From Ruditapes philippinarum (lineage: Eukaryota), in the NCBI RefSeq assembly GCF_026571515.1, contig NW_026854186.1, positions 310,001 to 374,000 on the forward strand: a stretch of DNA of 64,000 nucleotides, in the 5' to 3' direction. Shown piece by piece: positions 39,919 through 63,162 of this stretch. Below the pieces are notes generated by a model that saw only the letters and a program-made list of their open reading frames with translations, was not told the DNA's origin and did no database searches. Position 1 is the stretch's first letter; each line of letters opens with the position of its first letter. A program made the position numbers and the translations under genes.

Positions 39919-40997
39919 TTTGACGCTTTCATCAGAGTCATTGGGCGTTTTTCCATCGGTTGGCAGGTGCGTGAAACCCTGTATAATACGTCACGTTATC
40001 CCGTCTTAATATCAAAGCAAGAACTTTCATATTTACCACTTTTTACTTTCCACTTGCTTTGATATTAAGATATTACATATTATGAGCAGTAAATTGATTA
40101 AAGAATTGTTCATCTTGAAAGCCATGGCATCATCTCCACAGATTGAAACAAACTATACTTTATGGGCATATACATATACATGTACATTTATAGGCCAAAT
40201 ATGTAAAATATTTGATTATGTGGATTGAAATATATTCTAAACCTACGTACCTGGACCAGGAGTTTAAAATTTTTATTAAAACCTCAACATCAGAGATACT
40301 TCCAAAAGCTAAATCTCTGTATGTTGCAGACCTTTGGGTCCAATTCAAACACACGCTCGATGATGTTTTTGCTAACCACGGATTTATATTAATATAAATC
40401 CGTGTGCTAACATATCAAAATTCATACCACGGCTATTTAAACCATCACAAACTCCATGAAAGAGAAGCCATAATAAAAAAAAGTCAGATCATGATCAATT
40501 GGTATAATTTAAAAATTAAAATCTCAAATTAAAGCTATAGAAGTAAACAATCACCCTTACTCAGAAAACCAGATGACGATGAAACTAATACACAAAGTAA
40601 AGTCTGTACCACTCTATTAAAAAAAACAACAAAAACCCAACAACAACAATTCTAACAAGTATTCACAAAAGGTCACCCCATTAAAAGATCAAAACTCACT
40701 GCAGGCTCTCTCAAAAGTAATAGTTTTCACTGAAAAAGCAAACATTCTTAGCAAACGAATTCAATCAGTTTTCTCACCATTTATATCACTCTCATTTAAA
40801 AAGACATGCATGCAAAACCTGAGACGCCCGAAAGTATTGTCGGTACCAACAAATGAGTGGCATTAAGGCTGACATGTCTTTGATAGATTTTGACAAAAAC
40901 AATAAAAAAAAACAAGGACAACGTAAACATTGTCGCAAAATACAAAAACTTTTGACAGAGAGGTACTCCCGGTCCCTTGACCTACTTAGCAAATAAA

Positions 40998-42278
40998 AAC
41001 TAGAAATGTGTCATTATGCCACGGATGCCCCCGCATGCAGCCAAAATTTCAGATGTTATAATATTTAGTTCCAAATTTGTTTGCACAAATTATTTTTTCA
41101 TTTTAAGTTCAAAGCCCTTAACACATTTCAATGTTAACACAAACCATTTTCATACAATGTTCAAGGCACTGAAATTATTCAGTCTTTACCTTTTAAAAAT
41201 AGAATATTGCATATTTGTAGCCAAAATAATGGCTACATACATTTCCACAAAAGTATGAGTGCTGAAACTGAAAGTTCAAAATTTTTCCAACATTCAGGAA
41301 AGATAAGTTTGTCCAAAATCATTGAACCACGACCAAATTCAAACTTAAACTGTTTATTCCTAAGATGTATCTATATTATTTTCAAAGTGAAAGGGACATA
41401 ACTCTGCCAAAAAATCATCAAACCATGACCAAATTCCAACTTGACCTGCCCATTCCTTTGACATATCCATATGTCAAATTTGAGTTGAATATGTAACACT
41501 GTTGGGTAGATAATGAACAGAAACTGTAAATTTCATATTATTTTCAAAGTGAAAGGGGCATTACTCTGCCAAAAATCATTGAACCATGACCAAATTCAAA
41601 CTTGGCCTGGGCATTCCAAAAACATATCCATATGTCAAATTTGAGATGAATGTGTTGTACCGTTTGGGAGATAATTAACGGAAACTGAAAATTTCATATT
41701 ATTTTCAAAGTGAAAGGGGCATAACTCTGCCAAAAATTATTGAACCATGACCAAATTTGAATTTGACCTGCGCATTCCTTTGACGTATCCATATGTCAAG
41801 TTTGAGTTGAATGTGTTGTACTGTTGGGGAGATAATGAACGGAAACTGAAAATTTCCTATTGTTTTCAAAGTAAAAGGGGCATAACTCTGGCAAAAATCA
41901 TCAAACCATGACCAAATTCGAACTTGACCTGTATTTTCTCATGACATATCCATATGTCAAGTTTGAGTTGAATCTGTTGTACCGTTGGGGAGATAATGAA
42001 CGGAAACTGAAAATTTCATATTATTTTCAATGTAAAAGGGGCATAACTCTGGCAAAAATCATCGAACCATAATCAAATTCGAACTTGACCTGTATTTTCT
42101 CATGACATATCCATATGTCAAATTTGAGTTGAATGTGTGTAACCGTTCTCAAGATAATGAACGGAAACTGATGATGACGGAATGACAGAATGACGGAAGG
42201 ACGGAATGACGGAAGGACGGAATGACGAAACAGGGTAACACTATATGCCCCGGCCATTACATGGCGGGGGCATAAAAA
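40998..42278 (-). mobile_element. HINE with ~161-bp array, inverted copy of 3810-5207
   Basis: aactagaaatgtgtcattatgccacggatgcccccgc..gccccggccattacatggcgggggcataaaaa; same monomer, with fewer units. Confidence 0.88.
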
Positions 42279-42302
42279 GCTTAGAGGCAAAATCCAAAAA
42301 GA

Positions 42303-43922
42303 AACAAGAGCCATGTCAACATGGCCATCCCCCCTCATGAGAAGAATGTATATGTAGTAGAGCAGAATAAGTCTTATGGTAATGAAAACTGATGGCTATA
42401 GTGATTACAGATTTGAAACCTATGTGAATACTGATGGCTGAAAATAACAAAGGACAATAACTGAAAAATAATGCAGGGTAGATTATCATTCTTGTGTGCT
42501 GCATCCCTCCTCAGTAAAATCTATCCACCTATGAAGATTCAAGTTGATACCTCAAATACTTTTTGAGAAAAAAATTGAATTGAAAAATTAAGTATGAAAA
42601 ATAACAAAGGGCAATAACTCAAAAATTATAAAAGGTAGAGTTATCATTCTTGTGCACTGCACACCTCCTGAGTGAGATCTATGCACCTATGAAGTTTCAT
42701 AATGATATCTGAAAGGCCTTTTGAGTTATGCTCTGGACAAAAATTAATTTTGAAAAATAAAAAAGGGCAATAACTAAACAATTATGCAGGGTAGAGTTAT
42801 CGTTCTTGTGCACTGCACTCTTCCTCAATGAGATTCATCCACCTATGAAGTTTCAAGTTAATACCTCAAATACTTTTTGAGATAAGCTCCGAACAAAATA
42901 GTATGAAAAAGAACAAAGGGCAATAACTCAAAAATTGTACAGGGAAGAGTTATCATTCTTGTGCACAGCATTCCTCCTCAATAAAATCTATCCACCTATG
43001 ACATTTCATGTTGACATCTAAAACACTTTTGAGTTATGCTCCACTCGGGTGAAAAATTAGGCATGAAAAATAACAAAGGGCAATAACTCAAAAATAATGA
43101 AAGGTAGAGTTATCATTCTTGTGCACTGCACATCTCCTGAGTGAGATCTATGCACCTATGAAGTTTCATTTTGATATCTCAAAGGCTTTTTGAGTTATGC
43201 TCTGGACAAAAATTACTTTTGAAAAATAACAAAGGGCAATAACTCAAAAATAATGCAGGGTAGAGTTATCATTCTTGTGCAATGCATTCCTCCTCAATGA
43301 GATCCATCTACCTATGAAGTTTCAAGTTGATACCTCAAATACTTTTTGAGATAAGCTCTGGACAAAATAGCATGAAAAAGGGCAATAACTCAAAAATTGT
43401 ATAGGGAAGAGTTATCATTCTTGTGCACAACATTCCTCCTCAATAAGATCTATCCAACTATGACATTTCATGTTGATATCTCAAAAACTTTTGAGTTTTG
43501 CTCCACTCAGGTGAAAAATTAAGTATGAAAAATAACAAAGGGCAATAACTCAAACATTATGAAAGGTAGAGTTATCATTCTTGTGCACTGCACACCTCCT
43601 GAGTGAGATATATGCACCTATGAAGTTTTATGTTGATATCTCATAGGCTTTTGGAGTTATGCTCTGGACAAAAATCAATTTTGAAAAATAACAAAGGGCA
43701 ATAACTCAAAAATTATGCAGGGTAGAGTTATTATTCTTGTGCACTGCACTCCTCCTCAATAAGGTCTATCCACCTATGAAGTTTCAAGTTGATAACTCAA
43801 ATACTTTTAGAGATATGCTCCGGACAAAAATGTCGGACGGAAGGACGGACGGACGGACGGAAGGACGGACGGACGGAGACTATTTCTATATCCTTCGCCG
43901 CCTTTTCGGCGGGGGATAATAA
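42303..43922 (-). mobile_element. HINE with ~9 x 155-bp array organised as a higher-order trimer
   Basis: aacaagagccatgtc..catggcc terminal hairpin; monomer agggcaataactc every ~155 bp; (GGAC)n microsatellite; end cgccgccttttcggcgggggataataa. Confidence 0.85.
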
Positions 43923-45480
43923 GGAACTCATAGTTGTTGTACCAAGGCATGGTCATTTTCTCCGATCGTTCACAGCCAGGAAAGAGTAAGAAGTTCTACT
44001 CTTTCATCAAGTCAAACAAAACTGAAAACTGTGGAGTAGCACCTTTAAAAAGTGATGGACAAAACTTTACTGATCCTGAAATGAAGACAGACATACTAAA
44101 TACAATTTGAGTCTGTCGTCTTCCGCCCCTAACTATTAAGTCTTAACCAGTCATGCAAACAATTGCTCACTTAAAAAAACTATCCAAAAATGCCAAATAT
44201 CAACATAACAGAGGATGAAGAAAAGAAACTCCTTAAAGGTCTCAATCCAAGCAAAACCTTTGGCCCCGATCAGCTGTCCAAAGGTTATTGAAAGAACTTG
44301 GGGTCCTTCTGGGCTCATTGCCACTGGTTCTTCTTGCTGGGTCGTGTGGGGGTTGCGTTTATTGAACGCCGCCTTTCCTTGTTGATCTTGTTTATCATAT
44401 TTTATACTGAAATTGCCCCAATTCTCACACACATTTTCCAAATTTCCCTAAAAACTGGTACTGTCCCTCATGCCGTACGTCATTGCCCCTGTTTATAAGA
44501 AAGACCCAAAATGTAAGCCTGGCATCTACAGTCCTATTTCATTAACCTGCATTGCCCTTAAGCTGATGGAGCATATAATTGTCTCCAATATTATGTCTTT
44601 CTATGAAAAGCATGATATCTTCAGCAAATTCCAACACGGTTTTAGGTCAAAACATAGCTTGGAAACCCAGTTTATCAGTTTCACCCAGAAAGTCCATGAC
44701 AATTTAGAGCAAAGCCAACAGACCGATGCCATTGTCATGGGTTTCAGCAAATCATTTAATTAAGTCGACCATCACAAACTTCTCCTTAAACTACAAAGAC
44801 TAGGTGTTAGCTCAGAGGTCATCACACGGACAAAATCATTTTTATATGGTCGCACTCAACAGGTTGTTATTGATGGTCAAAACTCTGATAACCTACCTGT
44901 CCTGGGACCTTGCAAAAGCAAAAGCAAATAATTCTCTCAGATCTATAAAAAGAATGTCAAAACTTCCAATAAAAGGTTAAAGAAACTGCCATAAAAATAT
45001 CTGGTTTACAAAATAGAACAAGTTCAAAGGTCAGCCGCCAGCTTAATACAGATATGTATATAATGATTACAATTACACCAGTAGTGTATCTAAAATGTTA
45101 CGTGATCTTAATTGGCAAATCTTGAAAGTAGTTCTTTTAAATTTTGAAGTGACACATTTTAAAAATCTGAATAAAGTGGGATCCCTCGGAAGTATTAATC
45201 GCAACAAAATAACATGGAAATTGCAGACTCGGTTTATTGAGTCTGTACATGACGGATTAGAAAAATGTGCAACATCCCTCATGTCCCCCTAGAACCGGCT
45301 TGAGCGGTACTCAATTTTCAACACTTAAAAGTGTTGGAATCAATGTTCCCGAAGTGCTAGAGAATTATAACAACACTGAAGTGAAGTAAGTCATCTCTAG
45401 TTAGATTGGTCATAATGAAAGTGTATTTATTGCATCTGTGGCGTTTTTGTGTGTTATCTGATGGATTAAAAGTTTGTTTC

Positions 45481-45532: not shown

Positions 45533-47214
45533 TTGTTGTTCAGGACCTTATTTGTTGGTGAAAGGATTGAGGATGATTTGATCTTCTTTCAAGGATAACC
45601 CACAAAAGTGTAAGCACTTGTATTTCCAGTAGGGTTCTTACCTAAGCAGACTCCAGAGACAGTAAATGGCTAACATTTTATATTAAGGGCCTCATTAGAC
45701 TTTGACAGTGTTGATGTTGAATACAGTAAAAAATGCATAAAGCACAGTGGAATACAGATTTAAGCCTCAAAGGTGACTGATTTACTATAAAACAGAGACT
45801 ACAAAATTGACTAGACCGATACCTAAAATATTCATATCGTGTTGTATGTAAAAAAGCAGCTCACTGTTAATAGTATCTTTAGACAGACAGACAGATAGAA
45901 AAATAAACATACATACAGACAGAAAACTTATATTTCTACTCTAGGTATTACAAATACAACACGAGGATAAAAAAATGAATAATGTTTAGCCATTTTGAGT
46001 ACCGATAGAAATCGTTATCGTTACAAGATTAAGTAAAAGTAAGCAAGTTCCTCTGTAACAACCAACACTTTATACATATTCGGAAATGGAAGGCAGTTCA
46101 CATGCGACTGATTCATAATCTAAATCGATTCTTTTCTTAAAGCGGCCTCTACTCCCGTGGAATAGAAAGAACTTCGGTTTTTATATCCCTGTTCAATTGT
46201 AATGGATAATGAAGGAAAAGAACCAAGATTTTACTTCAGTCTTGCACTGCCGGTTCAATGTAATGGTTTTGTTTTCGCTCCTTACACCGCACCCGATATG
46301 CTGCGATTTGAAGCGAGGATTGTACCATTTGACGGTGTCCACACAAAGTCCACATATTCCCCATGCGTTGTTGCTTTACTACAATGGTACATTAGATGTC
46401 TTAAACAAATGCTTATTTGAATGACAGGCTCTAGTCACATAATCAAATATTTTATATAATCGGCCTATATATTTCCTCTTAACTCATACTATATCCTTAC
46501 AATAAACAACAAACAATATGATACTATTTGAAAATGTATTATATGTATGGAGCAATTGGACGATCAGTGTGTAGTGTGTAATACATTCACATTTCAATTA
46601 TAACATGTAACAATACATAGTTACTATAATAAATGCATATTAACAAATATATTCATTTTAACACATTCATAGACAATAATCTTAAATTCAGATAATAAAA
46701 TCATCTTACAAAATATATATCACAACTATATGGTTGAAAATGAAACATTTATGCTAAACACATTTCTTGTCAATTCTTAATTTTTTAAGCTGATATTGCC
46801 TAGTCCATCGTCCAAAGCTGAACATTACTTTAGCACGAAAACTTCGAGCACAAATCTATCAATAGATACTATATTCGACCAATGGAAAATAATTTTCGTA
46901 TAATTCACTTTCGCTCAACCGTGGAAAATTATATTTATTTAATGATATCTTATTATAGTATATAGCCCATAAAGAACATATAAAAGGTTGTTTCAAGCAC
47001 CTGTGATCTAAATGAAAGAAAAATACAAGAAGAAAATTAATATGAATATAAACATGTGCGTTTTAAAAATATTTGACTACATTCATTACATTCTGATTTC
47101 AGAATTAAATTCCCACACTAAATGGTCATATATGGAAATATACGCTGAAGAAATGTTATCAGAATATATATTTGATATTTTGCATAGGCGAGGTGAAACA
47201 AGCACTTGTTTTTT

Positions 47215-49259
47215 CTACGGTCTACAACCGGATTCTTCTTTATCGCAATAGTTTTCCTTTTTGGACATTTCTGGTTTTGTCATTTTTACAAGTTTAGGTA
47301 ATATATTTGTCCAAAAGTTATAGCCCCTATCAAATAACCGCTGCCCGACCGACATGTCCCTACTAATGTTAAGATATAGTTGACTCTCTAAATTGTACTC
47401 CGGCCATTCCGTGTTAATGCGCACCGGCTTGTTTGGATCACTGTTTCAAAAAAGAAAAGAAAAACATGAAATGGGCTACTAGTAGCAAAGTGTAGCTTAT
47501 TGAATAAATAACAGATTTAAGTGTGAAACAATTCTAATACAAACATTTGAAAGTTTGAATTATCAATTATTTATTTGGCTATGTTTATCGGCAAATGAAT
47601 GATAATTAAATTTTAAAAAATTTAATAAAAAAAGTAATAAATGTAAAAAAACAGGAAATTCAAAAGGTAGTCAGCTTTACCCGCTTTTTGCGAAATTTGT
47701 CCACATTTTGATTACTTCTTTTGACATTTCAATTTCCCATTTCTGTGGTTCAACGCCATATGGAGCTGTTGCGCTTGTAAATCCGCTCTCTGAATCATAC
47801 CCTAAAATAAACGCCCACTCGTCAGCGTGTACTGACCCACCTTTCCACGTGGGTGGTACCCACAGAATATGTTGGGATGAGAAAGCATTTAAAAGGAACA
47901 AAAACGTTTTTGTGCCATGATTATTTTCAGCATGTATCTTCGTTGTGTCAATGACTTGGCTGTTAAAAACGTAATCGGAACTTAGCCGCATAAAAGATTC
48001 ATAAGAACGCTCTTCATCATCAGGATTTTTCCAGTCCGTATATTCAAAAGCGACAAGAGTATTTATGTTTTCTGGAATATTTTCACCAAACATTATACGC
48101 ACGATATCTGGTATATATTTGTTTTCCAATTGGTATCTATCAACTGTAAATGTATCTGTGTTATCAACACCTACAAATGGAGTAATCATCATGAAACCTT
48201 CGTCGTCTACAAGGCCCGCCATTACATCGAAACTGCGGAATAAATCTCGCCTGTCTTTTGCAATATCTGAATCGCTATGAAGCATTTCCCAAGTAGTTAA
48301 TGGAACGAATTCTTCGTCAACAGAAAACAAAACTCTAAAAGGAAACTTTCTGAATCCATTCAATGGATTATTGTACGCTTTCATAAACTTTTCATCGGGG
48401 ATATTTCTTAGACAAGTTGCAAGTCGTGAAGTATCTACATCAGTTTGGACATCCGACTAGATTAGCAATGCGTTTAGCATTCTGTAATGAATCTCGCTGA
48501 TAAGCCCATGGGCACGTTATGCTGCCACTCTGAGGGATAATTCTCTTAATCAGTCCTTTATTTCCTGGGTACATTGCTTGAAATATCACACTGGCCCCGC
48601 CTGCCGAACCTCCAAATAATGTCATTTTATCAGGGTCTCCACCGAACGCTGCAATATTTTCGTGTACCCAACGAATAGCCATATGTTGGTCCCAGAGACC
48701 GTAATTCCCGGGTAAATTTGAATCACCAGTACTCAAAAATCCAAACAACCCTAACCTATAGTTAACGTTCACCAATATAACGTTCCCATATCCACTAGTT
48801 ATATGTCCAGGGTATATTGATGATGTCCCTATAACAAAACCTCCACCATGGAAGAGAATCATTACAGGTAACTTATCATTATCTTCTCGATTATCCGGAG
48901 TGAAAATATTTATCACGAGGCAGTCATTTGAGAACTCCGGTAAACCAGTTTCAGCTGCTGGTTTCCGCTTCCCTAAAAGATCCATATGCAGTTGCAAACA
49001 AGAGGGTCTATATCTTGTAGCATCATACACGCCATCCATTCTCTGTTTCATTTTAGGCTTCTCAAAACGGAGAGCACCTACAGGTGGCTCGGCATAAGGC
49101 ACTCCAAGAAATTGCCGTACTCGAATAGGAACTCCAAACGGCTCGAATTGTCCTTGCTTCTCCCTTTATAGTCCAATATTTGTTTCAAACAATGACCTCT
49201 TCCATCATTGTCGAATATTTTATAAAACATAGCAATAAAATTGTAATATAGATTTTCAT
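47215..49259 (-). CDS. Secreted type-B carboxylesterase/cholinesterase-family protein; two coding exons (49259-47681, 47440-47215) with apparent single-base indels
   Basis: Signal peptide MKIYITILLLCFIKYST; QFLGVPYAEPPVGALRF, NDCLVINIFTP, HGGGF oxyanion hole, NYRLGLFGFL, GNYGLWDQ, nucleophile elbow GGSAG, acid DDEG, histidine VHADE, WTNFAKSG|DPN across a 240-bp GT-AG intron. Frameshifts near 49190-49140 and at 48444-48446. Confidence 0.85.
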
Positions 49260-50989
49260 TTTCTCTCAAATACTTTAGCCATGGACATCTATCGAATGTT
49301 TTAATCACAGCATGTTAGATAAACTTCACTAAAACAGACAAACTTTTGATAAAGCTTATCCTTGTGCATATAAAATGACCTTGGTTGTTTTTATCTAATG
49401 TTGATTTATAGTCACCTACATAAGCTGAACTTAAGCAAGTATTACGAATGTCACAGCCAAGATATACAAATAACAAGTGTTTTAAGCACCCCGATTTCAA
49501 ATGTGCATGTCTCCTGTACTTTACCTTGAAATGAAATTGCACAATATTTTGTAAACAAAGTCACATCACCTATGTCTATTTTTTTCGAAAAAAAAAAAAT
49601 GTATAAATATATTCAAACAAAAGATTTTTTTGTGTAAGAAATAGAAGAATGGGAAGTTTCTATAAAGTCTATAAAAAAAGTTTCAAATCTAATATTTTGA
49701 AGAATTAGATTTATCACACTAATAAAAGTATTCTATAACATATTATAATTAAAAACAAATTAAAGCTTTACTGTAGGAGAAAGACCTTAGGTGCCTGCCC
49801 CTCTTTGCAAAATTGTTCTAGACACAAACGGGCATCTGAGTACGGTAAGCTAGCTTTATAGCGGTCTGTGTATCGTAAATACGCTTTCCAAACAAAACTC
49901 TCATTTCAGACAATTAGAAAAAATTTAAGTGTATTTTTGTCATCATGTAAGTAATTAAACGTTTATGTTTCTGCTGGAAACTTGTTTTTGAATGGAGAAA
50001 AATGACATGGTAAAGTTATACTACAATAAGATCAAAGCGCTGAAGGCACTGAAAAAGACGGAATTTCCTGGGTAGGGTAACATACTTTTATTCCAGTTTC
50101 ACAGGTAAATGAATTCTATATGTCAGGGTATACGTCTTAATTTACGGTATACCTAATTTTTAGAGTTTACATTAAAAATTAAATTCCATGGAAAAATTCT
50201 TAGGAGGCCTTTAGCGTCTGATTACATGTATTATGTATTATGACTGGAATACTGAATTACACTTTTTGTGTTTACAATACTAAAGTATGTAGCTCTTGAA
50301 ATTTTTGACACGACATCTTGTATTCCCAAAACAATTTACAAAGGCTTTTATTACACTATCTGATAAAGCTTCGAATTACGAGTACCATGCGCCATATCTC
50401 CAGAACATGCATCAAGTAACCGCAAAGTTATCTATGAAGTATCCACCTACAGGATTTTAAGCGGCCAATAACAAGAAAGAACTGATAAAAGTACGGGATT
50501 TTTGTAAAAAGGGAGGGAAAAGAAGAGATTTCAGAGCCATAAATTAGGGAAAATAGGGCTGTTGACACACATTTTTATGCAAACAAATGCACCCACATCA
50601 ATCTTTATCCATTGCATTTTTTTTGAAACCAGTCACCAGTATCTTTACAGAGATTCCACAACAAGATAGTCGGGAGATGAACCTGGACTTCGTAAATGTT
50701 TTTAAAGATCAAAATCCAAAATATTTACAAAACTATGAACAACAAGCAAATTCGTTGAATTTATATCCCCCGCCGAGTACTGGTTATTACTAACACAACA
50801 ACTGAAGACATAAGGCTTTATTTATTTATATTTATCATGGCGTAAACAGCAATATTCTTGGTACATGATAAATATTCAGGGCAATAACAGAGCCATAGCT
50901 CCGTGTTAAATAGTAATATCTGGACATGCCAATGAGATGTAAATTGCCTTTTTGTATCAATGGTTCCCATAAACAATACAGCAGTTGCA

Positions 50990-52960
50990 AAGAAATAGCA
51001 ATATTGCTCTATATGCATACTACATAACTAATCAAGGGCCATAAGTCTGTAATGAATGGTCTGATCTGAACAAGGCTACAAATTGTGCATATCTCTTCTT
51101 GGTATTAATGGTTACCATAAAGTTTAATTGAATTCCAGCCATTAGTTGCAGAAAAATAGCGCAGAAACAATTATTACTCTATATGCATACTGCATAACTA
51201 ATCAAAAGCCATAACTCTGAGCTAAAGTGTCTGACCGGAACAAGGCTATGAAATGTGCATCTCCTCTTGGTATTGAAGGTTCCCATAAAGTGTGCCCTAT
51301 ATGCATAATGCATAACGGACCATATATAATCAAGGACCATAACTCTGAGTTAAAGTGTCTGACCGGAACAAGGGAACGATATGCGCTTCTCCTGTTGGTA
51401 TTGAAGGTTCGCATTAAGTTTCGTTGAATTCCAGCCAGAAGTTGCAGAGAAGAAGCGCGGAAAAGTTTATTGCTCTATATGCATACTGCATAACTAATCA
51501 AGGGCCATAACTGGGAGTCATCAATATCTAGAGGAGATGCGCATATCGTCGGCTTGTTTCGGTCAGACCTTTATCTCAGAGTTATGGCCCTTGATTAGTT
51601 ATGCAGTATGCATATAGAGCAATAAACTTTTCCGCGCTTCTTCTCTGCAACTTCTGGCTGGAATTCAACGAAACTTTATGTGGACCCCATAAAAAGTTTT
51701 CGGTTGAATTCCAGCCAGAGTTGCAGGAGAAGAGCAGCGGAACGATTTTTTGTTTACATTGCATACTTGGCAGTAAAAACTTCTCAAGGGGCTATAAACT
51801 TGAGTAAAGTGTCTGACCGGGGAAACAAAAGGCCGTTATATTGCGCATCTCTCTTGATATTGATGCTTCCATTTAAATTTTTGTGAAAAGTTCAAGGCAG
51901 TAGGTTTGCAGGAGGAAAGCGCGGAAAGATTATATGCTCTATATATGATACTGCCCTAATTAAACAAGGGCCATAACTCTGAGATAAAGGGTCTGATCGG
52001 AACCAATTTACCATATGGGCATCTCCTCTTGATATTGATGATTCCCATCAAGTTTTGTAGAATTTAATCTAGAAGTTGCAAAGAAGTAATGCAAAAACTA
52101 TTATTGCTCTATAAGCTTACTGCATAATTAATCAAGGGCCATAACTCTGAGTTAAAGTGTCTGACCTGAACAAGGTCTCCTGTTGGTATTTAAGGTTCCA
52201 ATAAAGTTTCATTGAATTCCAGCCAGTCGTTGCAGAGAAGAAGCGCGGAAACGATTTTGGCTCGATATGCATACTGCATAACTTATCAAGGGCCATAACT
52301 CTGATTTAATGGGTCTGCCGGGACCAGCCGACGATATGCGCATCTCCTCTTGATATTGATGATTCCCATAAAGTTTCGTTGAATTCCAGGCAGTTGTTTG
52401 CAGAGAAGTAGCGCGGGAAACGATTATTGTCTATATGCATTACTGCATAACCTAATCAAGGGCCATGAACTCTGAGGTTTAAGAGTCTGACCGGAACAAC
52501 CTAACGATATGCGCAACTCCTCTTGGTATTGAAGGCTCCCATAAAGTTTCGTTGAATTCCAGCCAGTAGTTGCAGAGAAGTAGCGCGGAAACGATTTTTG
52601 CTCTATATGCATACTTCATAACTAATCAAGGGCCATAACTCTGAGTTAAAGTGTCTGACAAAGCAAGGCAACGATATGCGCATCTCCTCTTGGTATTGAA
52701 GGTTCCCACAAAGCTTCGTTGAATTCCAGCCAGTAGTTGCAGAGTAGTAGCACGGAAACGATTTTTGCTCTATATGCATACTGCATAACAAATCAAGGGC
52801 CATAACTCTGAGTTAAAAAGTCTGATTGGAACAAGCCGATGATATGCGCATCTCCTCTCAATATTGATGATTCCCATAAAGTTTGGTTGAATTCCAGCCA
52901 GTAGTTACAGAGAACTAGCGCGGAAACAAAATTCGGACGGACGGATGGACGGACGTACTT
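50990..52960 (-). mobile_element. HINE-type ~168-bp tandem array (~12 units) with one inverted monomer
   Basis: Monomer atcaagggccataactctgag..tgaattccagcc..gcagagaag; (GGAC)n microsatellite at 52936-52956; 51513-51680 is in reverse orientation. Confidence 0.8.
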
Positions 52961-53059
52961 ACGAAATGGTACTAATGTGACTTAGCCATTTTCAGTCACA
53001 CAATGCTTAAAAAAAGACACACAGGTAAAAACGGAATGAACAGGATCAAAGAGAATTTA

Positions 53060-53849
53060 CTGTTACCCATTGTTTTTCAAGTCACAAAAGTACCTCTGGG
53101 TTTGTACGAATATTATACTTAAAAATAAAGAAAAAAATAAGTCAATGGTCAATGCCCTTAAGAAATATATAAAGAAATACAAATCAGCCCAGTATTTGAT
53201 TCAATGGTTTTTACATGGTTTAAACTTGGTTACATAGGTCCCGACACAGCTTCTGTATCTCCAAACCTTAAGTCTTGTGACGATGATACTGAGGCAGTTC
53301 ATGTTAAAGTTAAGATAGAACTTGACTCAGGTAGAATAAGGGTCCGTTTAATTTGGCACCACCAATAGGAACCAATCTTTCGCATTAAGGGCCCGATTGG
53401 CCTCGTTGCACAAAGCAAAAAATCCAGAGTCAATTTAGAATTAATTTACACCATCTAATTATTTCCACATGGTATTTCTTTTTCAAATTCTGATTTTCAT
53501 AAGCCCCACATTTTCTTCCGCGAACTTTACAGTTCCTTTTGAATGATTTACAGTTTTATAAAACTGGCTTAGATCTGTTCCTGATTTCTTATTCAGCAAA
53601 CAGACAATAGATTCAGCATTTCGATTCATTCCAATTCATCCAGATGTCCATCATTTAGTAGGCTTTAGATTTTGTGGCCATTATTATTTTGATACATGTC
53701 TTCCTATGGAGGCATCGTCTTCTTGCGCTATTTTCGAACGTTTCAACTCGGGTTAACATCACATTGCTGAAAATGTTTCAAACATCAAGCATATGGTTCA
53801 CATTCTAGATGATTTTCTTAAACTAGGTCCCCTTTATCCCCTTTGCTGT
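53060..53849 (+). mobile_element. Decayed DIRS/Ngaro-type (tyrosine-recombinase retrotransposon) reverse transcriptase fragment
   Basis: GFKLGYIGP..SPNLKS..KIELDSGRIRGPF..PIGLV..FPHG..GFRFCGHYYFDTCLPMEASSSCAIFERF..HMVHILDDFL across stops and frameshifts. Confidence 0.78.
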
Positions 53850-54566
53850 TGTCGTAGGATAAGAATTTATGTAAAATGTACACTGCCTTATATTTTGTTA
53901 ATCATTTCAAATAAAATATATTAACTGTATCTAAATGCGTTGATAGTAACATTGTTATTTGGGACCCCTTGATTCCTATTACCGTTATATCTCTCTATAT
54001 TTCTAATCATTTCCTATCTCTCATTGTTACTAAAACCTGTCACCCGTAAAAACTTAATATGCTATGTTCGGGTATGTTGTGTGATGCCTCCATTGCCCAC
54101 TTCATATTTGGGACCAATTTCCATGTTATAGTTGTATAATTATATTTTATATTGTGTAAATATATTCTTTAATAAATATCTTGGATATTTTCGAGGTTAA
54201 GTAATCTTTGAGAGTTATAATTTAAATTATTAAATTATTACAGAATGTCTTTATTGGTATAGTTATAGAGGTTTTTGATAAGTTATAGAGATGTTTACTT
54301 ACAATACTTACCTGAAATACTTACCTAATTGTACATGTAGCTATTACATACCTGTATCAAACACTCAACCGTATGTTATAATTGTTAATTGCACTTCATA
54401 TTTGACCATTCCATGTTATAGTTGTATAATTATATTTATATTGTGTAAATATATTCTTTAATAAATATCTTGGATATTTCAGATATTTGCATTTGTTGTG
54501 TCTTGTGTCAGTCGATATATTACCCCACCTATAATACAAGTAACTGCCGACTGGGTTACGTCGACA
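53850..54566 (+). repeat. 5' LTR
   Basis: TGTCGtaggataag...gggttacgtCGACA; co-linear with 62021-62708. Confidence 0.92.
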
Positions 54567-54567
54567 A

Positions 54568-54580
54568 TGGCGCCCAACGT
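54568..54580 (+). promoter_or_regulatory. Primer-binding site complementary to the tRNA-Lys(CUU) 3' end
   Basis: TGGCGCCCAACGT, 1 nt after the 5' LTR. Confidence 0.85.
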
Positions 54581-54946: not shown

Positions 54947-56845
54947 ATGGCATAGCTTTTAACAGAACGTGGAATTGAGGAGTATATTAAGAGATAGAAA
55001 AAGAGAAAAAGACCAGATGCAGGAGAAAAGGAGGAAAAGAGAAAGGAACGACTTGAAGAATTAGGAAAGGATTGAACATCGAACGATACAACGACAAATT
55101 TTGATGCAGGATGATTTCTTGAACTTGACATGCGAAACATATAAATCAAACAAGAACAAGGAAGTGATTAAAAGAAAGTATTATCTGATTTGAACATCGT
55201 ATTTCCTACATGCATTACAAACATTTAACACGATAATCCAAGACTTGGAGATAATGAGCCACAAAAATTTAAACATCAAATAATCATTGGAAGAGTAACT
55301 TATTGCATTTTTAGGATGAAACCAAAGATATGCTAAGATAAAGGGATAGCATCAAAGATTAACAATAAAGGATATACAGTATTTGGTAGGACAATGCATT
55401 TCGGACAAAAGTATTACTCGGACATAGATCGGATGAAAAGTTATAGGAGTGGACAAAGTGTGAGGAGTTTGGATATGAAAATTGAATGAAATTAAAAGTG
55501 AAAATGGGGAGATTAGAAGTCAGAGAAGTTCTATTGAAAGGGAAAGTTTAAAGTCTCAGGAAATTACAAGAAGTTGAAAGTAAGAAGCAGAAGTTATTTA
55601 TAGAAAGTCAAAGGAGGTTATAGGCTGAAATTGAGAATAAGAGAAAAGCTGAAAAAGAATTGATAGAGAGAATAAAACTATTAGAAGATCAGGAACTAGT
55701 TTTGAATAGGAAAAGATATGAAAATGAAATGCTTGAGAAGGAGATTCAAGCTAACAGAAAAGAGGATGGTACACTTAGCACAAAGATAAAATTGTTAAAA
55801 GAAAAAGAAAAGCTACTGAAAGAAAGACTACAAAGAACAGATGCAAATCAATTACAGACAAGAAAAGAACGACTGAAAAGAATGGAAATTAAAGATAATG
55901 GAACAGAATACAATAAAGAAGAAAGTTTTGTTCGACATAACTATACAGAGAAATGCCGACAAAAAGACAGCGACTATCCGATGTTTAAACTTGGACCACC
56001 GAAGATACCTCATTTCAATGGCAAGGATTTTGAGCAGTGGGAGATGGAGATATTTTGTTTATTAAGAACCCAGATGTATCCGGACTATGCTATTGTGCAA
56101 GCTATTCGACACTCCTTGATTGGAGATACACGACAAGTATTGTTGACAATTAAACCAACCGCATCAGCAAAAGAAATTCTGGAAAAGATAAGAGAAATCT
56201 ACGGTGATATTAAGACAGGAGACAAAGCTGTTCAAAACTTTTACTCAGCAACGCAAAAGGAAGGAGAATCATGTTCTGCTTGGGGAATTAGAGTAGAAAC
56301 CTTATTTTCAGAAAGCTGTAGAAAAGGGAGAAATAAGTGAGAGTAAAAGAGAAAGTAAACTTAAAGAACGCTTTTGGAGAGGATTATATTCTGAAAAAAC
56401 TTAAGAATGCCACAAGAGTGTCGTATGAGTCAACAGATTTACATTTGAAAAATTAAGACGAAAGGCAAGGCTAGAAGAAGAAGAGAATTTATCAACTCAA
56501 GTGAAAGCAAATATTAACCAACAGAAAGAGACAGATGAAAAATTAACTATTCTTCAGGAGCTTCTGGATCGAATGAAAACATTAGAGGCCGATGTTGGAA
56601 AACTTAAAGGTCAAGATCAAAATTATACATATAGAGGAGGATACCAGCCAAGATTTAACAGCAGATATAGAGGTTCAAATAGAGGAAGAGGTTTTAGAAG
56701 GAACGAAAGTAACCAACAAGAGTCAACAAAGTATGACCGAAGTCTTTCAGAGAAGAAAGAGCCAAATGAGAGTAGAGAAACAAGTAAAGCCAATTTAAAC
56801 GAGAAGGAGCTTCTATCGACGGGCAAGATGGAAGCAAAGAAGTAA
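54947..56845 (+). pseudogene. gag: Gypsy gag (long coiled coil, PNMA-like capsid, RG-rich tail), frameshifted in this sequence
   Basis: ORF pieces 55660-56340 (PKIPHFNGKDFEQWEMEI..AIRHSLIGDTRQVL..FYSATQKEGESCSAWGIRVE) and 56501-56845; the 5' start is approximate. Confidence 0.8.
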
Positions 56846-56853
56846 ACAGCCCG
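56794..56853 (+). promoter_or_regulatory. -1 programmed ribosomal frameshift signal (U_UUA_AAC plus predicted H-type pseudoknot) at the gag-pol junction
   Basis: Heptamer in the correct gag phase (AAT TTA AAC); 8-nt spacer; stem 1 56809-56817/56827-56835; stem 2 56820-56824/56849-56853; the -1 frame is open into the protease. Confidence 0.85.
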
Positions 56854-59800
56854 AACATAAAGAGAAATACATTACGAGAGAGGATGGTAGGAAAGGCAAA
56901 TGAAAATACAATTTTTATAGACAACATTGAGGTTAAAGCCCTGATCGACACAGGTTCTATGGTCAGTACAATTTCAGAGACATATTTCAAGAAAATGGAG
57001 GATAAGCCAAAATTACATGACATCGGAGAATTTGAATTGAATATAACCGGAGCAAATGGAAAAGAAATACCTTATCTTGGATACATCGAAGCCGAAGTTA
57101 AAGTTCCAAACAGTAACATGTCAGGATTGGTAGTACCATTCCTTATTGTAAAAGCAACAGAATATAATGACACAGATTCCCATAATAGGTATGCGTACCG
57201 ACATCATATCGGTGACGACGTGCAAGATTCAGTAATCCAGAAAATCAGAATAGAGGAATGTTCACAAATGGAATGGAAATCAGCTTTTGAGAATGAAAAT
57301 CAGACCATAGTATTGGGTAAAGTAAAAATTGAACACAGGACTTCCTGTTATATCCCACTGCAAAGCTAAAACAATACTGGTTTTCTGAGAAAGCGACATC
57401 AAAGGCGCGAAACGCCATTCCAGAGATCGTTGATGACTCCGGTGCTGATAACCAATGGTAATAGTCCTAGGGTGTGGTAGTAACACATTAACAATCGCGA
57501 AAGAGCAGCATCAGAGTTATCACTGATAAGGATTGTGGTAAAGTCTTTCATAGCAGGAAACTATATCAGTAAAAGGAAGTTACGATAATCTGCCAGTTAC
57601 AGCAAGTTGAAGTGTTGGATCAAGCTCCGATCTTCGACGCTAAGGATGACTTACCTAATTCTGAAAAAAGAAAATATACTTGCCAATGGAGGTCCGATTG
57701 TCTATCAACAGTCTGCATCTGAAAAAGAAAAAGAAACACATATTATAGAAACTAATGGAAACATCACACAAAAAGTTAAAATAAGTTCGGAAATAAACTT
57801 GAGCAATTCAGAACTCAATGAGGAACAACAAGAAGAAGTCATGCAATTGTTTGAAAATGGCAATCGATTTTTCCAAAGACGCCTTTAGAATTTAGGCCAT
57901 ACATCAAAAATAAAAACATAGAATTGAACTGACAGACAATAAGCCGTTTAAGGAGCCTTACAGAAGAATACCACCTGCACTGTTTTCTGAGATAAAACAA
58001 CATCTAAAAGACATGCTTGATATTGGAGCCATACGACATCTAAGAGCCCCTGATCATCACAATGCTGTAGAATACAATCAGAGATAGAAGAAACAGAAAA
58101 AAGGATGGTAATCCGCTCGCGTCTGATTTGTCAGCTGGCAAATGTACATTCTCCGACTAAGAAACGACGACGTCTAAGTGAATTAATCAACAGAATAATG
58201 GATGACAGAGTCTCCAGATGCCTATCTGGACACAAAATACCGTTTCCAAAAATCTTGACTTAAAATTCTAGGTATGACGGAACAGATCGAAATTAGAAAG
58301 AAACGACTGACAAAAGAAAGAACCGAGACATTCAAGTAAGGAAGGATTTAAGGAATACCTACCACGCAAACGGATAGCGTCTAGCGAGGCCATATGTAAA
58401 GGCCCAGCGCATTATCCAGGCTCACGGAACGCATCGAGATAATGGGGAAGACCTAATGTCATAGCAGACGTCAATCACTACCCACTCACACTCTATGCAC
58501 GCACGACACGTCGCTCATTGATGTACAAGCGCTAGGAATCGAGACCTTAATAACTCACCTGGAACCGACTAGCAATAGCAAGTCATGTTTTCACACGTTT
58601 GGCAGACTTGCAACCTGAAAGAAGTAAAACCATCAAAGTGACGAGATTTGTTGCATAAATGGAAACTACCTACCTAGGGCCACCGTCGTGAATCTGAAGA
58701 TAGTATATTCCAGATAAAGCTGATCCTATTCAATAGAACTGAAGACAGTTAGAAATTGGCGCAGACGGCACAAACACATACCATCAACAAAAACGCAAAG
58801 TTTCGTCAATTTCAGGGTTTGCTGAGCTATTATAAGGATATTCATACAGATTTTGGCAGCTTTTTAGCCAGACCCCCTAAGATGACCTCATTAAGCTTAC
58901 GGACAGAGACAGCAACTAAGAACAAGGAAAATCTTCTTTCAGGATATGAAAGTAAGCAGAAACGTGTTCCTTTCCGATGGGTATACTCCTCAGGAAACAA
59001 GCTTTTAATGATATCAAGGAACAACTGACAAACCCTCCCGTACTTGGATATGCAGATTATACAAAACCATTTACTGTACATGTCAATGCTTCATCTTTAG
59101 GACTTGGTGGAATCCTTTATCAAAAACAAGACGGAAAGGATCGTGGTCATTGCGTTTGCTAGCAGAAGTTTGAAACAAAGTGAGAGGAGCTATCCAGCTC
59201 ACAAGCTCGAGTTTCTCGCACTCAAGTGGGCTGTCACTGAAAAGTTTCATGACTACTTGTATGGCGCGAAATTCGAGGTTTGTGACTGATAACAACCCTC
59301 TCACTTATGTGAATACTTCTGCTAAGCTAGATGCCACAGGTCACAGATGGCTAGCAGCTTTGGCGAATTATGATTTTTCGACCAAATATAAGAAAGGAGA
59401 GTCCGACGAAGCTTACCCACGGACAAGCCGAAAACATGTATGATAGAAGCAGTGACACTATGAAAGATCAGATTGCCAATATGCTCCACTCAGGAGTTAC
59501 AACACAGACCCAGCGCACTACTCGGCATCACGACGCTGAGAACCAGTAGCATTGCACCAATCCAGGCACATCGGAACTCCCGATAGACAACGCCGATACC
59601 AAGCCGATGTTCTAGTGGCGCCGCAAGTGGCGCTAAGCCGGCCGCATCAAGAGAAGCGGAGGAGAAAGGTTCAATGCGATACACTAACCAATCATTCAGA
59701 GGCTGATGGACCAAGAGGAATAGTTCCCCAAAGAGTTGTTAAAGCCTGTTACAATGAGCTACAACAACTTAACACTCATACCCATACCCGTCCTACACTG

Positions 59801-61388
59801 ATAGCAAATCCCAACCTGTGAAATTCCATTCCAAGAAGATCTCTTACGAAATGAAAGCGTTTCTTCAACAACCTGGATAAAAGCACAAGCAGATGATCCC
59901 ACAGTATCTAAGATAGTTGACAATTTAAGAAACGGAACAAAACCGGCTAAGCCTTTTGACCGAACTATTTCTACATATATTAGAGAATGGTCGAACCTTG
60001 TCTTAATACAAGGTGTTCTTTACAGAAAATCGACATTGTCAGATGGTGATCATCTTCAACTTGTTTTACCTGAAGCCATTCGATTGGAGATTTTCAAATG
60101 CTTACATGACGACCTTGGTCACCAAGGTCGAGATCGTACAACATCGCTTTTCAAGGAAAGATTTTATTGGCCTGGAATGGACAGTTTTATCGCCAAATCA
60201 ATCAGGAAGTGTGATCGTTGCATCAGAAGGAAGTCTCTCTCAACAACTGCAGCGTTGACTCCAATACAATCAACGGCACCAATGGAAGTGGTTTGTGTAG
60301 ACTTCTTGTCATTGGAGAGATGTAAAGGAGGTTTTGAAAACATTCTTGTCCTGACCGATCACTTCAGTCGATATGCACAGGCATATCCTACTAGAAATCA
60401 GACTGCAAAGACAACGGCCAAATTTTGTTTGATAATTTTATAGTCCACTACGGATTTCCTGGTAGGATTCATAGTGACCAGGGACAGAATTTTGAGTCGC
60501 ATCTAATCAAAGAGCTCTGCAGTCTGGCTGGCATTGAGAAAACAAGAACAACGCCTTACCATGCTATGGGGAACGGAATGGTCGAAAGATTTAATCAAAC
60601 GTTACTCAAGATGCTTGGACTCTAGAGGAGCATCAAAAGTCCGATTGGAAAGCCCATGTTCCGAGTCTGGTCCATGCATACAATGCAACCCGTCATGAAA
60701 GTGTCGGCTTCTCTCCGTACTTTCTTATGTTTGGACGTCATCCTAGACTCGCCATTGATGCTTTTCTAGGGTTACCTACTGATGGTCTTTCATCAAGCAT
60801 CCATTCGGAGTACGTGATTAAACTTAACGACCGTCTCCGTTCCGCATATGCAAAGGCTAGAGAAACCGCTGTTAAAACATCTGAAACAAACAAGGCTTAT
60901 TATGAACAAAAAGCTAGAAGTTCCGTTCTTCAACCTGGCGACCGAGTGCTAGTCCGTAACGTTTCAATACGTGGAAACAAAAACTAGCAGACAAATGGGA
61001 ACACAGTCCTTATATAGTTGTTAGTCAACCTCTTGAGGACATACCTGTTTACGAGGTTAAGAAGGAAGGTTCTCGTTTCAAGAAAACAAGAACTCTACAT
61101 AGAAACCTCCTTTTGCCATTTATGTCTATTTCAGATGTTCCAGTTGAAGATAAACAAATGGAACTTGACATTGTAGATGACTCTGGTGATTTACAAACAG
61201 ACGTAGATGTTACAGATGCAGAGCACGTTTCTGTTGAGAATGGTATGAATCTAAATAATGATTGTTCTTTTTCTCATTCTGATATTTCTATTTCAGGTGA
61301 ACAGGATGATGATGAAATACAACTTGAACAGTCATCTAGACCAATAAGGACACGAAGGCAGCCAAATTGGATGTCGACAGGCGACTGA
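56794..61388 (+). pseudogene. pol: Gypsy pol (aspartic protease, RT, RNase H, integrase); many frameshifts, RT region garbled
   Basis: VKALIDTGSMVS; PFKEPYRRIPP; FASRSLKQSERSYPAHKLEFLALKWAVTEKFHDYLYG; TDNNPLTY; HDDLGHQGRDRT..FYWPGM..CDRC; VCVDF..DHFSRYAQAYP..IHSDQGQNFES..YHAMGNGMVERFNQTL. Confidence 0.88.
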
Positions 61389-62020: not shown

Positions 62021-62708
62021 TGTCGTAGGATAAGAATTTATGTACAATGTACACTGCCTTATATTTTGTTAATCGTTTCAAATAAAATATATTAACTGTA
62101 TCTAAATGCGTTACATGTTATTTGACCCTTGATCCTATACCGTTATATCTCTCTATATTTCTATTATTCCTATCTCTCATTGTTACTAACCTGTCACCCG
62201 TAAACTTAATATGCTATGTTCGGGTATGTTGTGTGATGCTCCATTGCACTTCATATTTGACCATTCCATGTTATAGTTGTATAATTATATTTTATATTGT
62301 GTAAATATATTCTTTAATAAATATATTGGATATTTCAGGTTAGTAATCTTTGAGATTTATAATTTAAACTATTACATTATTACAGAATGTCTTTATTGGT
62401 ATATTTAAATAGGTTTTTGATAAGTTATAGAGATGTTTACTTACAATACTTACCTGGAATACTAACCTAATTGTACATGTAGTTATTACATACCTGTATC
62501 ATACACTCAACCTTATGTTATAATTGTTAATGGCACTTCATATTTGACCATTCCATGTTATAGTTGTATAATTATATTTACTTTGTGTAAATATATTCTT
62601 TAATAAATATATTGGATATTTCAGATATTTGCATTTGTTGTGTCTTGTGTCAGTCGATATATTACCCCACCTATAATACAAGTAACTGCCGACTGGGTTA
62701 CGTCGACA
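62021..62708 (+). repeat. 3' LTR
   Basis: TGTCGtaggataag...gggttacgtCGACA, 688 bp. Confidence 0.93.
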
Positions 62709-63162
62709 TCGAGATCTCTTGCGTGCTAATCAACTGCACTAACCATTACACCAATATACAATCTGATAAATGTCTCAATCTATCAGATAGTATACACTAT
62801 ATATCTCGTAAACGTGTTTGCTTAGTTTCGTTTACTTGCAACGCGAACGACGAAAATGACCGTTAAAATTTAATATAAGTTTCTGATAAATACTCCAGAA
62901 ACAATTAAACTTTAATAAATACAACAAATTACTGTTTTTCGAACACTAATCAATTGTATTCCCGAGTAAAATATCCGAACCTTGCAAGGATTAGTATTTT
63001 CTTGGACACAACCTTAATTGCAGAATTTGCAAACAAGGTATATGCACATAAAGAGTAGTCGACTTTCTTATTTTTAATTCTTTTCTCTTTTCTAAAGAAA
63101 AGAATTACAAGTTATGGAGAAAAAAAAAACACCACAAAAATATAATGTGAAAAAAAAAATGC

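What the first reader, a model, noticed from the sequence alone, without database searches (positions are those of the whole stretch)
56785..56890. UUUAAAC slippery site plus H-type pseudoknot at the gag-pol junction of an invertebrate Gypsy element
Seen: gag reads AAT TTA AAC (U_UUA_AAC, 56794-56800). The pol frame opens two codons earlier (TAA at 56785-56787) and runs FKREGASIDGQDGSKEVNSPNIKRNTLRERMVGKANE into the protease. After an 8-nt spacer, GCUUCUAUC pairs with GAUGGAAGC (9 bp, one G-U), and loop CGGGC pairs with downstream GCCCG. Established: heptamer + spacer + pseudoknot is the canonical -1 frameshift architecture (UUUAAAC in coronaviruses; pseudoknot-stimulated frameshifts in Gypsy-derived PEG10 and PNMA3). 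Inference: this is a functional, probably uncharacterised recoding element, distinct from the error-type frameshifts nearby.
Basis: partly seen in the sequence, partly recalled or inferred. Interest (0 to 1): 0.72.

Follow-up and report, generated by a model that had tools for sequence, protein, structure and literature searches.

The report
Lineage-wide retrotransposon frameshift pseudoknot
This jumping gene carries, where its coat-protein gene overlaps its enzyme gene, a slippery seven-letter site and a predicted knotted RNA fold whose base pairs are kept through compensating changes in dozens of related elements, so ribosomes likely slip back one letter here to make the enzymes, a familiar viral trick that may share an origin with a similar signal in two human genes.

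Summary
Observation confirmed at every coordinate. The site is the gag-pol junction of a Ty3/Gypsy LTR retrotransposon with a PNMA-type capsid. It is not an assembly error: contigs of 4 of 4 public runs cross it without an indel, while they lack the window's nearby one-base indels, and a sibling copy has open gag (657 aa) and pol (1347 aa) in the -1 arrangement. It is not a chance fold. 28 of 29 families in this genome keep a heptamer in register plus both stems. 68 of 76 testable metagenome relatives pass a fixed-geometry test, against 17 of 1341 random positions. Both stems covary. So this is most likely a functional pseudoknot-stimulated -1 ribosomal frameshift, shared by a whole lineage rather than special to this copy. 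Frameshifting was not measured. The mechanism is textbook; I found no Rfam family or paper for this lineage's signal. Homology to the human PNMA3/PNMA5 signals is plausible but untested. The scan's notes hold no look-alike sequence.

The parts
53850..54566 (+). 5' LTR (TGTCG...CGACA)
   Evidence: 19 mismatches in 688 aligned positions and 29 gap columns against the 3' LTR; no target-site duplication seen
54568..54580 (+). primer-binding site, 13 nt complementary to the 3' end of a host tRNA-Lys(CUU)
55624..56340 (+). gag, capsid part (Pfam PNMA); interrupted in this assembly
   Evidence: (PF14893, E 9.2e-08, 32.1 bits, cut-off 25)
56429..56845 (+). gag C-terminal part, zero frame; stop TAA 56843-56845, 42 nt after the heptamer
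56785..56787 (+). stop codon that bounds the pol (-1) frame upstream
56794..56800 (+). slippery heptamer U_UUA_AAC, in register for a -1 shift from gag to pol
56801..56808 (+). 8-nt spacer
56809..56835 (+). predicted stem 1 (56809-56817 with 56827-56835) and its 9-nt loop
   Evidence: covariation
56820..56824 (+). predicted stem 2, 5' strand (CGGGC); the GGG is pol codon 10 counted from the heptamer
56836..56848 (+). loop 3, 13 nt, 9 of them A
   Evidence: sequence
56849..56853 (+). predicted stem 2, 3' strand (GCCCG)
56788..57369 (+). start of pol in the -1 frame; aspartic protease with DTGS beginning at 56947, 153 nt after the heptamer start
59174..61388 (+). pol fragments: RNase H, integrase zinc finger and core; interrupted in this assembly
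   Evidence: domain order PR-RT-RH-IN in the sibling copy
62021..62708 (+). 3' LTR

Best explanation
The site is a slippery heptamer in the gag-pol overlap followed by a predicted H-type RNA pseudoknot, and it most likely makes a fraction of ribosomes shift -1 from gag into pol. Shown by sequence and comparison: the two overlapping frames, the heptamer register, the fixed distance to the stems, the compensatory changes, and the conservation across the lineage. Inferred from known -1 frameshift sites: the ribosome pauses when stem 1 reaches the mRNA entry channel with UUA in the P site and AAC in the A site; stem 2 locks the fold; both tRNAs re-pair on UUU and AAA; decoding resumes at CGA. Most ribosomes would stop at 56843 and make Gag (655 aa from the first Met in the sibling copy); a minority would make Gag-Pol (640 aa of Gag, then about 1340 aa of Pol), which sets the capsid-to-enzyme ratio. 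Efficiency is unknown.
For: (1) Arrangement: sibling copy L159 has open gag (657 aa) and pol (1347 aa) overlapping only around this site; pol is PR-RT-RH-IN. (2) Not an error: contigs of 4 of 4 runs span 56452 to 57136 or 57175 with at most 1 substitution, no gap and no joint. (3) Own genome: 149 of 150 protease hits anchored, 29 families; 137 of 149 copies keep a heptamer, 113 in register with an open pol frame; 28 of 29 families do. (4) Metagenome relatives: 72 of 76 testable loci have a heptamer in register, 68 of 76 also both stems, against 17 of 1341 random positions. (5) Covariation: own-partner versus swapped-partner energies S1 -13.6 vs -7.0 and S2 -9.9 vs -7.2 (28 families, 0 of 100000 permutations); S1 -15.8 vs -7.5 and S2 -9.3 vs -5.9 in 61 metagenome families. 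On a gap-free alignment of 28 families 14 of 15 pairs change on both sides, score 0.42 against at most 0.26 for slid registers; in the 7 families with the window's stem-2 register 0.61 against at most 0.22. The third stem-2 pair is G-C in 19, A-U in 6 and C-G in 3 of 28 families, with no mismatch; A-U sits in three separate places on the protease tree. Family F22 keeps stem 2 while changing both encoded residues (Gly to Glu, Pro to Ser), so protein conservation does not explain it. (6) U_UUA_AAC is listed among the most shift-prone heptamers, and 5-9 nt is the usual spacer (PMC5009743, passages).
Against: No frameshift was measured; no ribosome or protein data. No run is on record as RNA. The single-sequence hairpin is only moderately unusual. 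Nested folding cannot model both stems, and which one wins depends on the window (S1 probability 0.74, 0.30 or 0.04). Inner stem-1 pairs shift register between families (only 72.9% of S1 cells pair on the gap-free alignment). Stem 2 is weak in F27 (-2.7). 12 of 149 own copies and 8 of 76 metagenome loci fail; 6 of the 12 have a clean protease. The heptamer lists were set after seeing earlier outputs, the stem-2 3' strand in the pair table was placed by best pairing, and the random-position control had no best-of choice. The deep tree is unresolved (10 of 25 inner branches open). The tool warns that related sequences can beat its shuffles without structure.
Confidence: 0.9

Rival explanations
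1. A -1 shift happens here, but stem 1 alone is the stimulator; stem 2 forms rarely or serves another step such as packaging or dimerisation.
For: Stem 1 carries most of the energy; stem 2 is 4-7 bp and weak in F27; 4 of the 7 listed failing metagenome loci with a heptamer keep stem 1 but miss the stem-2 threshold. A paper title in the listing (PMC3203594, listing only) says stem-loops can substitute for a pseudoknot.
Against: Stem 2 covaries, with repeated G-C/A-U/C-G swaps, and its 5' strand stays at a fixed distance from the heptamer (G at that position in 85 of 89 families).
Confidence: 0.12
2. Pol is made without a ribosomal shift: by splicing, by a separate start at an AUG in the pol frame, or by polymerase slippage at the U/A runs.
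For: The window has an in-frame AUG 33 codons into the pol frame; a Met lies between heptamer and protease Asp in 13 of 28 own and 31 of 61 metagenome families.
Against: The Met is absent from 15 of 28 and 30 of 61 families and has no fixed place. No joint crosses the junction in 4 of 4 runs, though contigs drop rare forms. These routes do not explain a heptamer held in -1 register at a fixed distance from a covarying fold.
Confidence: 0.05
3. The frame offset is one more sequencing error or decay mutation, and the stems are chance.
For: The window's copy carries many one-base indels.
Against: Independent contigs lack those indels but keep this junction unchanged; 28 of 29 families and 72 of 76 outside loci show the same offset.
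Confidence: 0.01

Closest known systems
Human PNMA3 (Ma3) and PNMA5 -1 frameshift signals
   Same: Derived from Ty3/Gypsy elements; -1 shift at a heptamer at the end of gag, stimulated by a classical H-type pseudoknot, about 20% for Ma3 (PMC5009743, passage). The gag here matches Pfam PNMA and has PNMA2 as best solved relative (E 1.2e-06). Their heptamer GGGAAAC (PMC11299033, passage) occurs in 4 of 61 metagenome families of this lineage.
   Different: Those are domesticated genes whose -1 frame no longer resembles Pol; here it is a full pol. The window uses U_UUA_AAC. Whether the pseudoknots are homologous was not testable: I could not obtain the PNMA3/5 sequences.
Coronavirus (IBV) 1a/1b frameshift signal
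   Same: Same heptamer U_UUA_AAC (PMC5009743, passage) and a pseudoknot stimulator; long stem 1 with short loop 1 (IBV geometry recalled, no call).
   Different: Unrelated element; no Rfam match; likeness is convergent.
PEG10/Edr and retroviral gag-pro/gag-pol pseudoknot frameshifts
   Same: Gag-protease fusion by -1 shift with a pseudoknot (PMC5009743 and PMC11011659, passages).
   Different: PEG10 comes from a different Metaviridae lineage (chromovirus versus Barthez for PNMA; PMC3670739 table passage).
Animal LTR retrotransposons with pol in the -1 frame (2003 survey)
   Same: 28 of 51 animal elements had pol in -1, many with classical heptamers (as reported in PMC5009743).
   Different: Mostly Drosophila elements according to that passage. 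I could not read the survey itself, so I do not know whether it covers this lineage or its pseudoknot.

Membership tests
Programmed -1 ribosomal frameshift signal | Two overlapping ORFs, the second in the -1 frame | tested here: met
Programmed -1 ribosomal frameshift signal | X_XXY_YYZ heptamer in register inside the overlap | tested here: met
   U_UUA_AAC; 113 of 149 copies in register with open pol frame
Programmed -1 ribosomal frameshift signal | 3' RNA structure 5-9 nt downstream | tested here: met
   8 nt in the window; 4-8 nt in the 54 strict metagenome hits
Programmed -1 ribosomal frameshift signal | Measured -1 product that depends on site and structure | not testable with these tools
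   needs a reporter, ribosome profiling or mass spectrometry
H-type pseudoknot | Hairpin loop pairs with a downstream strand; both stems supported by covariation | tested here: met
H-type pseudoknot | Both stems formed at once in the RNA | not testable with these tools
   ViennaRNA folds nested structures only
Ty3/Gypsy LTR retrotransposon (Metaviridae) | LTRs, tRNA primer site, gag, pol in order PR-RT-RH-IN | tested here: met
Ty3/Gypsy LTR retrotransposon (Metaviridae) | Target-site duplication | tested here: not met
   flanks differ in this copy; may reflect recombination or assembly, not followed up
Lineage that gave rise to PNMA genes (Barthez) | PNMA-type capsid in gag | tested here: met
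   Pfam PNMA in 45 of 51 gag frames of 200 aa or more, 40 above the cut-off, including 10 of 10 from this genome; PNMA2 best in PDB
Lineage that gave rise to PNMA genes (Barthez) | RT tree placement with named Barthez elements | not tested
   no named reference sequences were at hand; a Pfam hit alone does not fix the clade
PNMA3/PNMA5 frameshift signal (homology) | Same pseudoknot sequence pattern and register | not testable with these tools
   sequence not found
Any Rfam frameshift family | Covariance-model match | tested here: not met
   no hit at the junction at E <= 10 in the window, in 20 own loci or 17 metagenome loci; the few weak hits were to unrelated families

The most novel reading that the evidence does not exclude
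This is one ancient, uncatalogued RNA family: a single frameshift pseudoknot inherited across the whole PNMA-capsid lineage of animal retrotransposons (89 families seen here), and the direct ancestor of the human PNMA3 and PNMA5 recoding signals. It is strong enough to drive shifting at sites with poor P-site re-pairing (A_UCA_AAC in 9 of 9 copies of one family, G_UCA_AAC, G_CCA_AAA), often with the gag stop right behind the site.
Probability: 0.4. Interest if true: 0.62.

Novelty: new member of a known kind. Interest (0 to 1): 0.45.

Why it matters
The mechanism is textbook and would not surprise a recoding specialist. The value lies in the comparative set: 89 natural variants of one frameshift cassette with covariation in both stems and at least ten heptamer types, ready for a reporter series on how site, spacer, stop position and pseudoknot trade off. 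It also makes testable an open point: one paper calls the relevance of the PNMA3/5 frameshifts unclear (PMC11011659, passage) while another finds them conserved (PMC11299033). If their pseudoknots align with this family, they are inherited retrotransposon signals. For annotation, the gag-pol offset in these elements should not be scored as a disabling frameshift.

Tried and rejected
Rfam scans found nothing at the junction. A search of the genome with RF01093 (RF_site5), which I recalled as the Ma3 family without being able to confirm it, gave no match and no positive control, so it says nothing; the same search could not be run on the metagenome loci. Viral contigs held no relative. No RNA holder was listed. 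Two runs guessed to be RNA cover the element with long contigs but not the unique stretch 47223-50000, which a DNA run covers; a third covers both; this is not used as evidence of expression. A protein search with one GGGAAAC-type gag returned 12 unnamed proteins and no taxonomy. The Ma3 paper and the 2003 survey are not held. PNMA3/5 sequences were not in the passages or supplements searched; tables and figures that are images, one unreadable supplement file and closed bioRxiv supplements may hold them. My strict pseudoknot finder passed only 54 of 76 metagenome loci; the fixed-window test passed 68; both are reported. Loss of the heptamer is only loosely tied to a broken protease (6 of 12 versus 26 of 137), so I do not lean on it. 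Three earlier scan notes on frameshifts in other element types were shown and not used. Readthrough is excluded because pol is in another frame.
Full report
1. The observation. Every coordinate checks out. Gag reads AAT TTA AAC, giving U_UUA_AAC at 56794-56800. The -1 frame opens after TAA at 56785-56787 and runs into an aspartic protease (DTGS at 56947). After 8 nt, 56809-56817 pairs with 56827-56835 (9 bp, one G-U), and loop bases 56820-56824 can pair with 56849-56853. Gag stops at 56843-56845. A positional score for hairpin plus loop pairing was reached by 0 of 300 shuffles, and only this site among 376 heptamer sites scored in the window has both stems (all 26 UUUAAAC sites and 350 of 1574 others). 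The hairpin alone is modest (z -1.91).

2. The element. LTRs lie at 53850-54566 and 62021-62708. A 13-nt primer site matches a host tRNA-Lys(CUU). No target-site duplication is visible. The gag matches Pfam PNMA. A sibling copy, 96% identical over the junction region, has an open 657-aa gag and an open 1347-aa pol in the -1 frame, overlapping only here; its pol is PR-RT-RH-IN and its gag's best solved relative is PNMA2. The host is an unnamed 1.4-Gb genome; 'invertebrate' was not tested.

3. Not an error. The window's copy is interrupted at many places. Contigs of 4 of 4 public runs cross the junction (56452 to 57136 or 57175) with at most one substitution, no gap and no joint, whereas they lack the window's one-base indels between about 56300 and 57920. 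So the neighbouring breaks are most likely assembly errors and this offset is real.

4. Conservation in this genome. A protease search scored 150 of 543 candidates. I took 150 distinct places, anchored 149 on the catalytic Asp and grouped them into 29 families at 80% DNA identity, with protease identity to the window down to about 32%. 137 of 149 copies have a heptamer upstream, 113 in register with an open pol frame; 28 of 29 families do, the exception being one decayed close relative. Heptamers: U_UUA_AAC 17, C_CCA_AAA 3, G_GAA_AAC 2, U_UUA_AAA 2, C_CCA_AAC 2, U_CCA_AAA 1, A_UCA_AAC 1. This list was set. All 28 fold into hairpin plus loop pairing. The 28 signals align without gaps. With windows fixed only by distance from the heptamer, each stem's 5' strand pairs better with its own 3' strand than with other families' (0 of 100000 permutations for each stem; own partner best or tied in 10 of 28). 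The third pair of stem 2 is G-C in 19, A-U in 6 and C-G in 3 families with no mismatch, and the next is C-G 20, U-A 3, G-C 2, unpaired 3. On the protease tree A-U occurs in F4 (sisters G-C), F11 (sister G-C) and the supported clade F8/F19/F22/F23; the deep tree is unresolved. The pair-count tool gives 14 of 15 pairs with two-sided change and a score of 0.42 against at most 0.26 for slid registers, and 0.61 against at most 0.22 for the 7 families sharing the window's stem-2 register. These controls do not fully correct for relatedness, and the structure came from the window's own sequence.

5. Out-of-sample test. A metagenome scan confirmed 145 relatives and returned the best 80; 4 had too little upstream sequence. 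My strict finder passed 54 of 76. With the stem windows carried over from step 4 and a heptamer list widened after, 75 of 76 have a heptamer, 72 in register, and 68 pass everything, against 17 of 1341 random positions (the control had no best-of choice). They reduce to 61 families, none more than 67% identical to an own-genome signal. Swap tests again gave 0 of 100000. One locus, L177, has gag and pol in one frame and no heptamer. Of 51 gag frames long enough to scan, 45 match Pfam PNMA and 40 pass the cut-off; four carry an N-terminal RRM-like domain, recalling the RNA-binding domain described for PNMA-related metaviruses (PMC11011659, passage). Hosts of these loci are unknown, and all were found with this protease, so the boundary of the lineage is not mapped.

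6. Mechanism. Shown: frames, register, spacing, covariation, conservation. Inferred from known sites (PMC5009743, passages): pausing at the pseudoknot, re-pairing of tRNA-Leu and tRNA-Asn from UUA AAC to UUU AAA, and continuation at CGA, giving abundant Gag and rarer Gag-Pol (sizes). In 15 of 28 own and 43 of 61 outside families the gag stop lies directly or one codon behind the heptamer; in the window it lies in loop 3. Rivals: stem 1 alone as stimulator (0.12); splicing, internal start or polymerase slippage (0.05; an AUG is missing in about half of the families); error or chance (0.01).

7. Known or new. It works like the IBV, retroviral, PEG10 and PNMA3 signals and meets every sequence-level criterion of a -1 frameshift site; the functional criterion could not be tested. 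It matches no Rfam family. Ten full-text searches returned no paper whose listing or passages describe this lineage's signal. The library lacks most subscription papers, including the Ma3 paper and the 2003 survey of gag-pol recoding, and Repbase entries were not seen. What I saw of papers: passages of PMC5009743, PMC11299033, PMC11011659, PMC3670739, PMC6238403, PMC3549841 and bioRxiv 10.1101/513333; passages and one section of bioRxiv 10.1101/2021.04.23.441185; abstract and outline of PMC13622457; supplement searches of PMC11299033, PMC11011659 and PMC7297798; listings only for the rest. Homology with the PNMA3/5 pseudoknots stays untested.

8. Verdict. A real and well-supported -1 frameshift signal, a new member of a known kind, with added value as a large covarying family and as a candidate ancestor of two human recoding signals. 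Interest 0.45.

Noticed in passing
family F29 (L126-L130, L135, L146, L148, L150); L183, L209; L167, L172, L180: Shift sites with poor P-site re-pairing: A_UCA_AAC in 9 of 9 copies followed at once by the gag stop, G_UCA_AAC/A, and G_CCA_AAA. None of these first triplets is in the list of exceptions in the passage read. They may shift by single-tRNA slippage helped by the stop codon.
   Followed up: partly
L177: A relative with gag and pol in one open frame (389 aa upstream of the protease motif), no heptamer and a shortened hairpin; decayed copy or a switch to a fused ORF.
   Followed up: partly
family F27 (e.g. L112, L114): Strong stem 1 but weak stem 2; two within-family variants of the 3' strand both keep pairing with the loop.
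   Followed up: partly
window 53840-53850 and 62708-62718: No target-site duplication, and the 5' LTR is 29 nt longer than the 3' LTR through many 1-2 nt gaps in its first 400 nt; recombinant copy or assembly noise.
   Followed up: partly
window 54119-54190 and 54408-54479 (again 62264-62335 and 62550-62621): Each LTR holds an internal direct repeat of about 70-95 nt, about 290 nt apart.
   Followed up: no
window 51000-52980: Array of diverged 150-170-nt repeats with one inverted block at about 51510-51690, upstream of the element.
   Followed up: no
window 40800-44420: Very high-copy repeat: summed contig depth in the thousands to hundreds of thousands in all four runs laid.
   Followed up: no
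window 46558-49252: In run X17 long contigs cover this stretch, one with its two halves in swapped order (46558-47440 and 47681-48623); unexplained.
   Followed up: no
L187, L195, L197, L211: Gag frames with an N-terminal RRM_1 match upstream of the capsid region; the PNMA domain itself was not detected in L197.
   Followed up: no
window 1819-2434, minus strand: Several strong hairpins (to about -19 kcal/mol) behind heptamer-like sites in the control scan; not examined.
   Followed up: no
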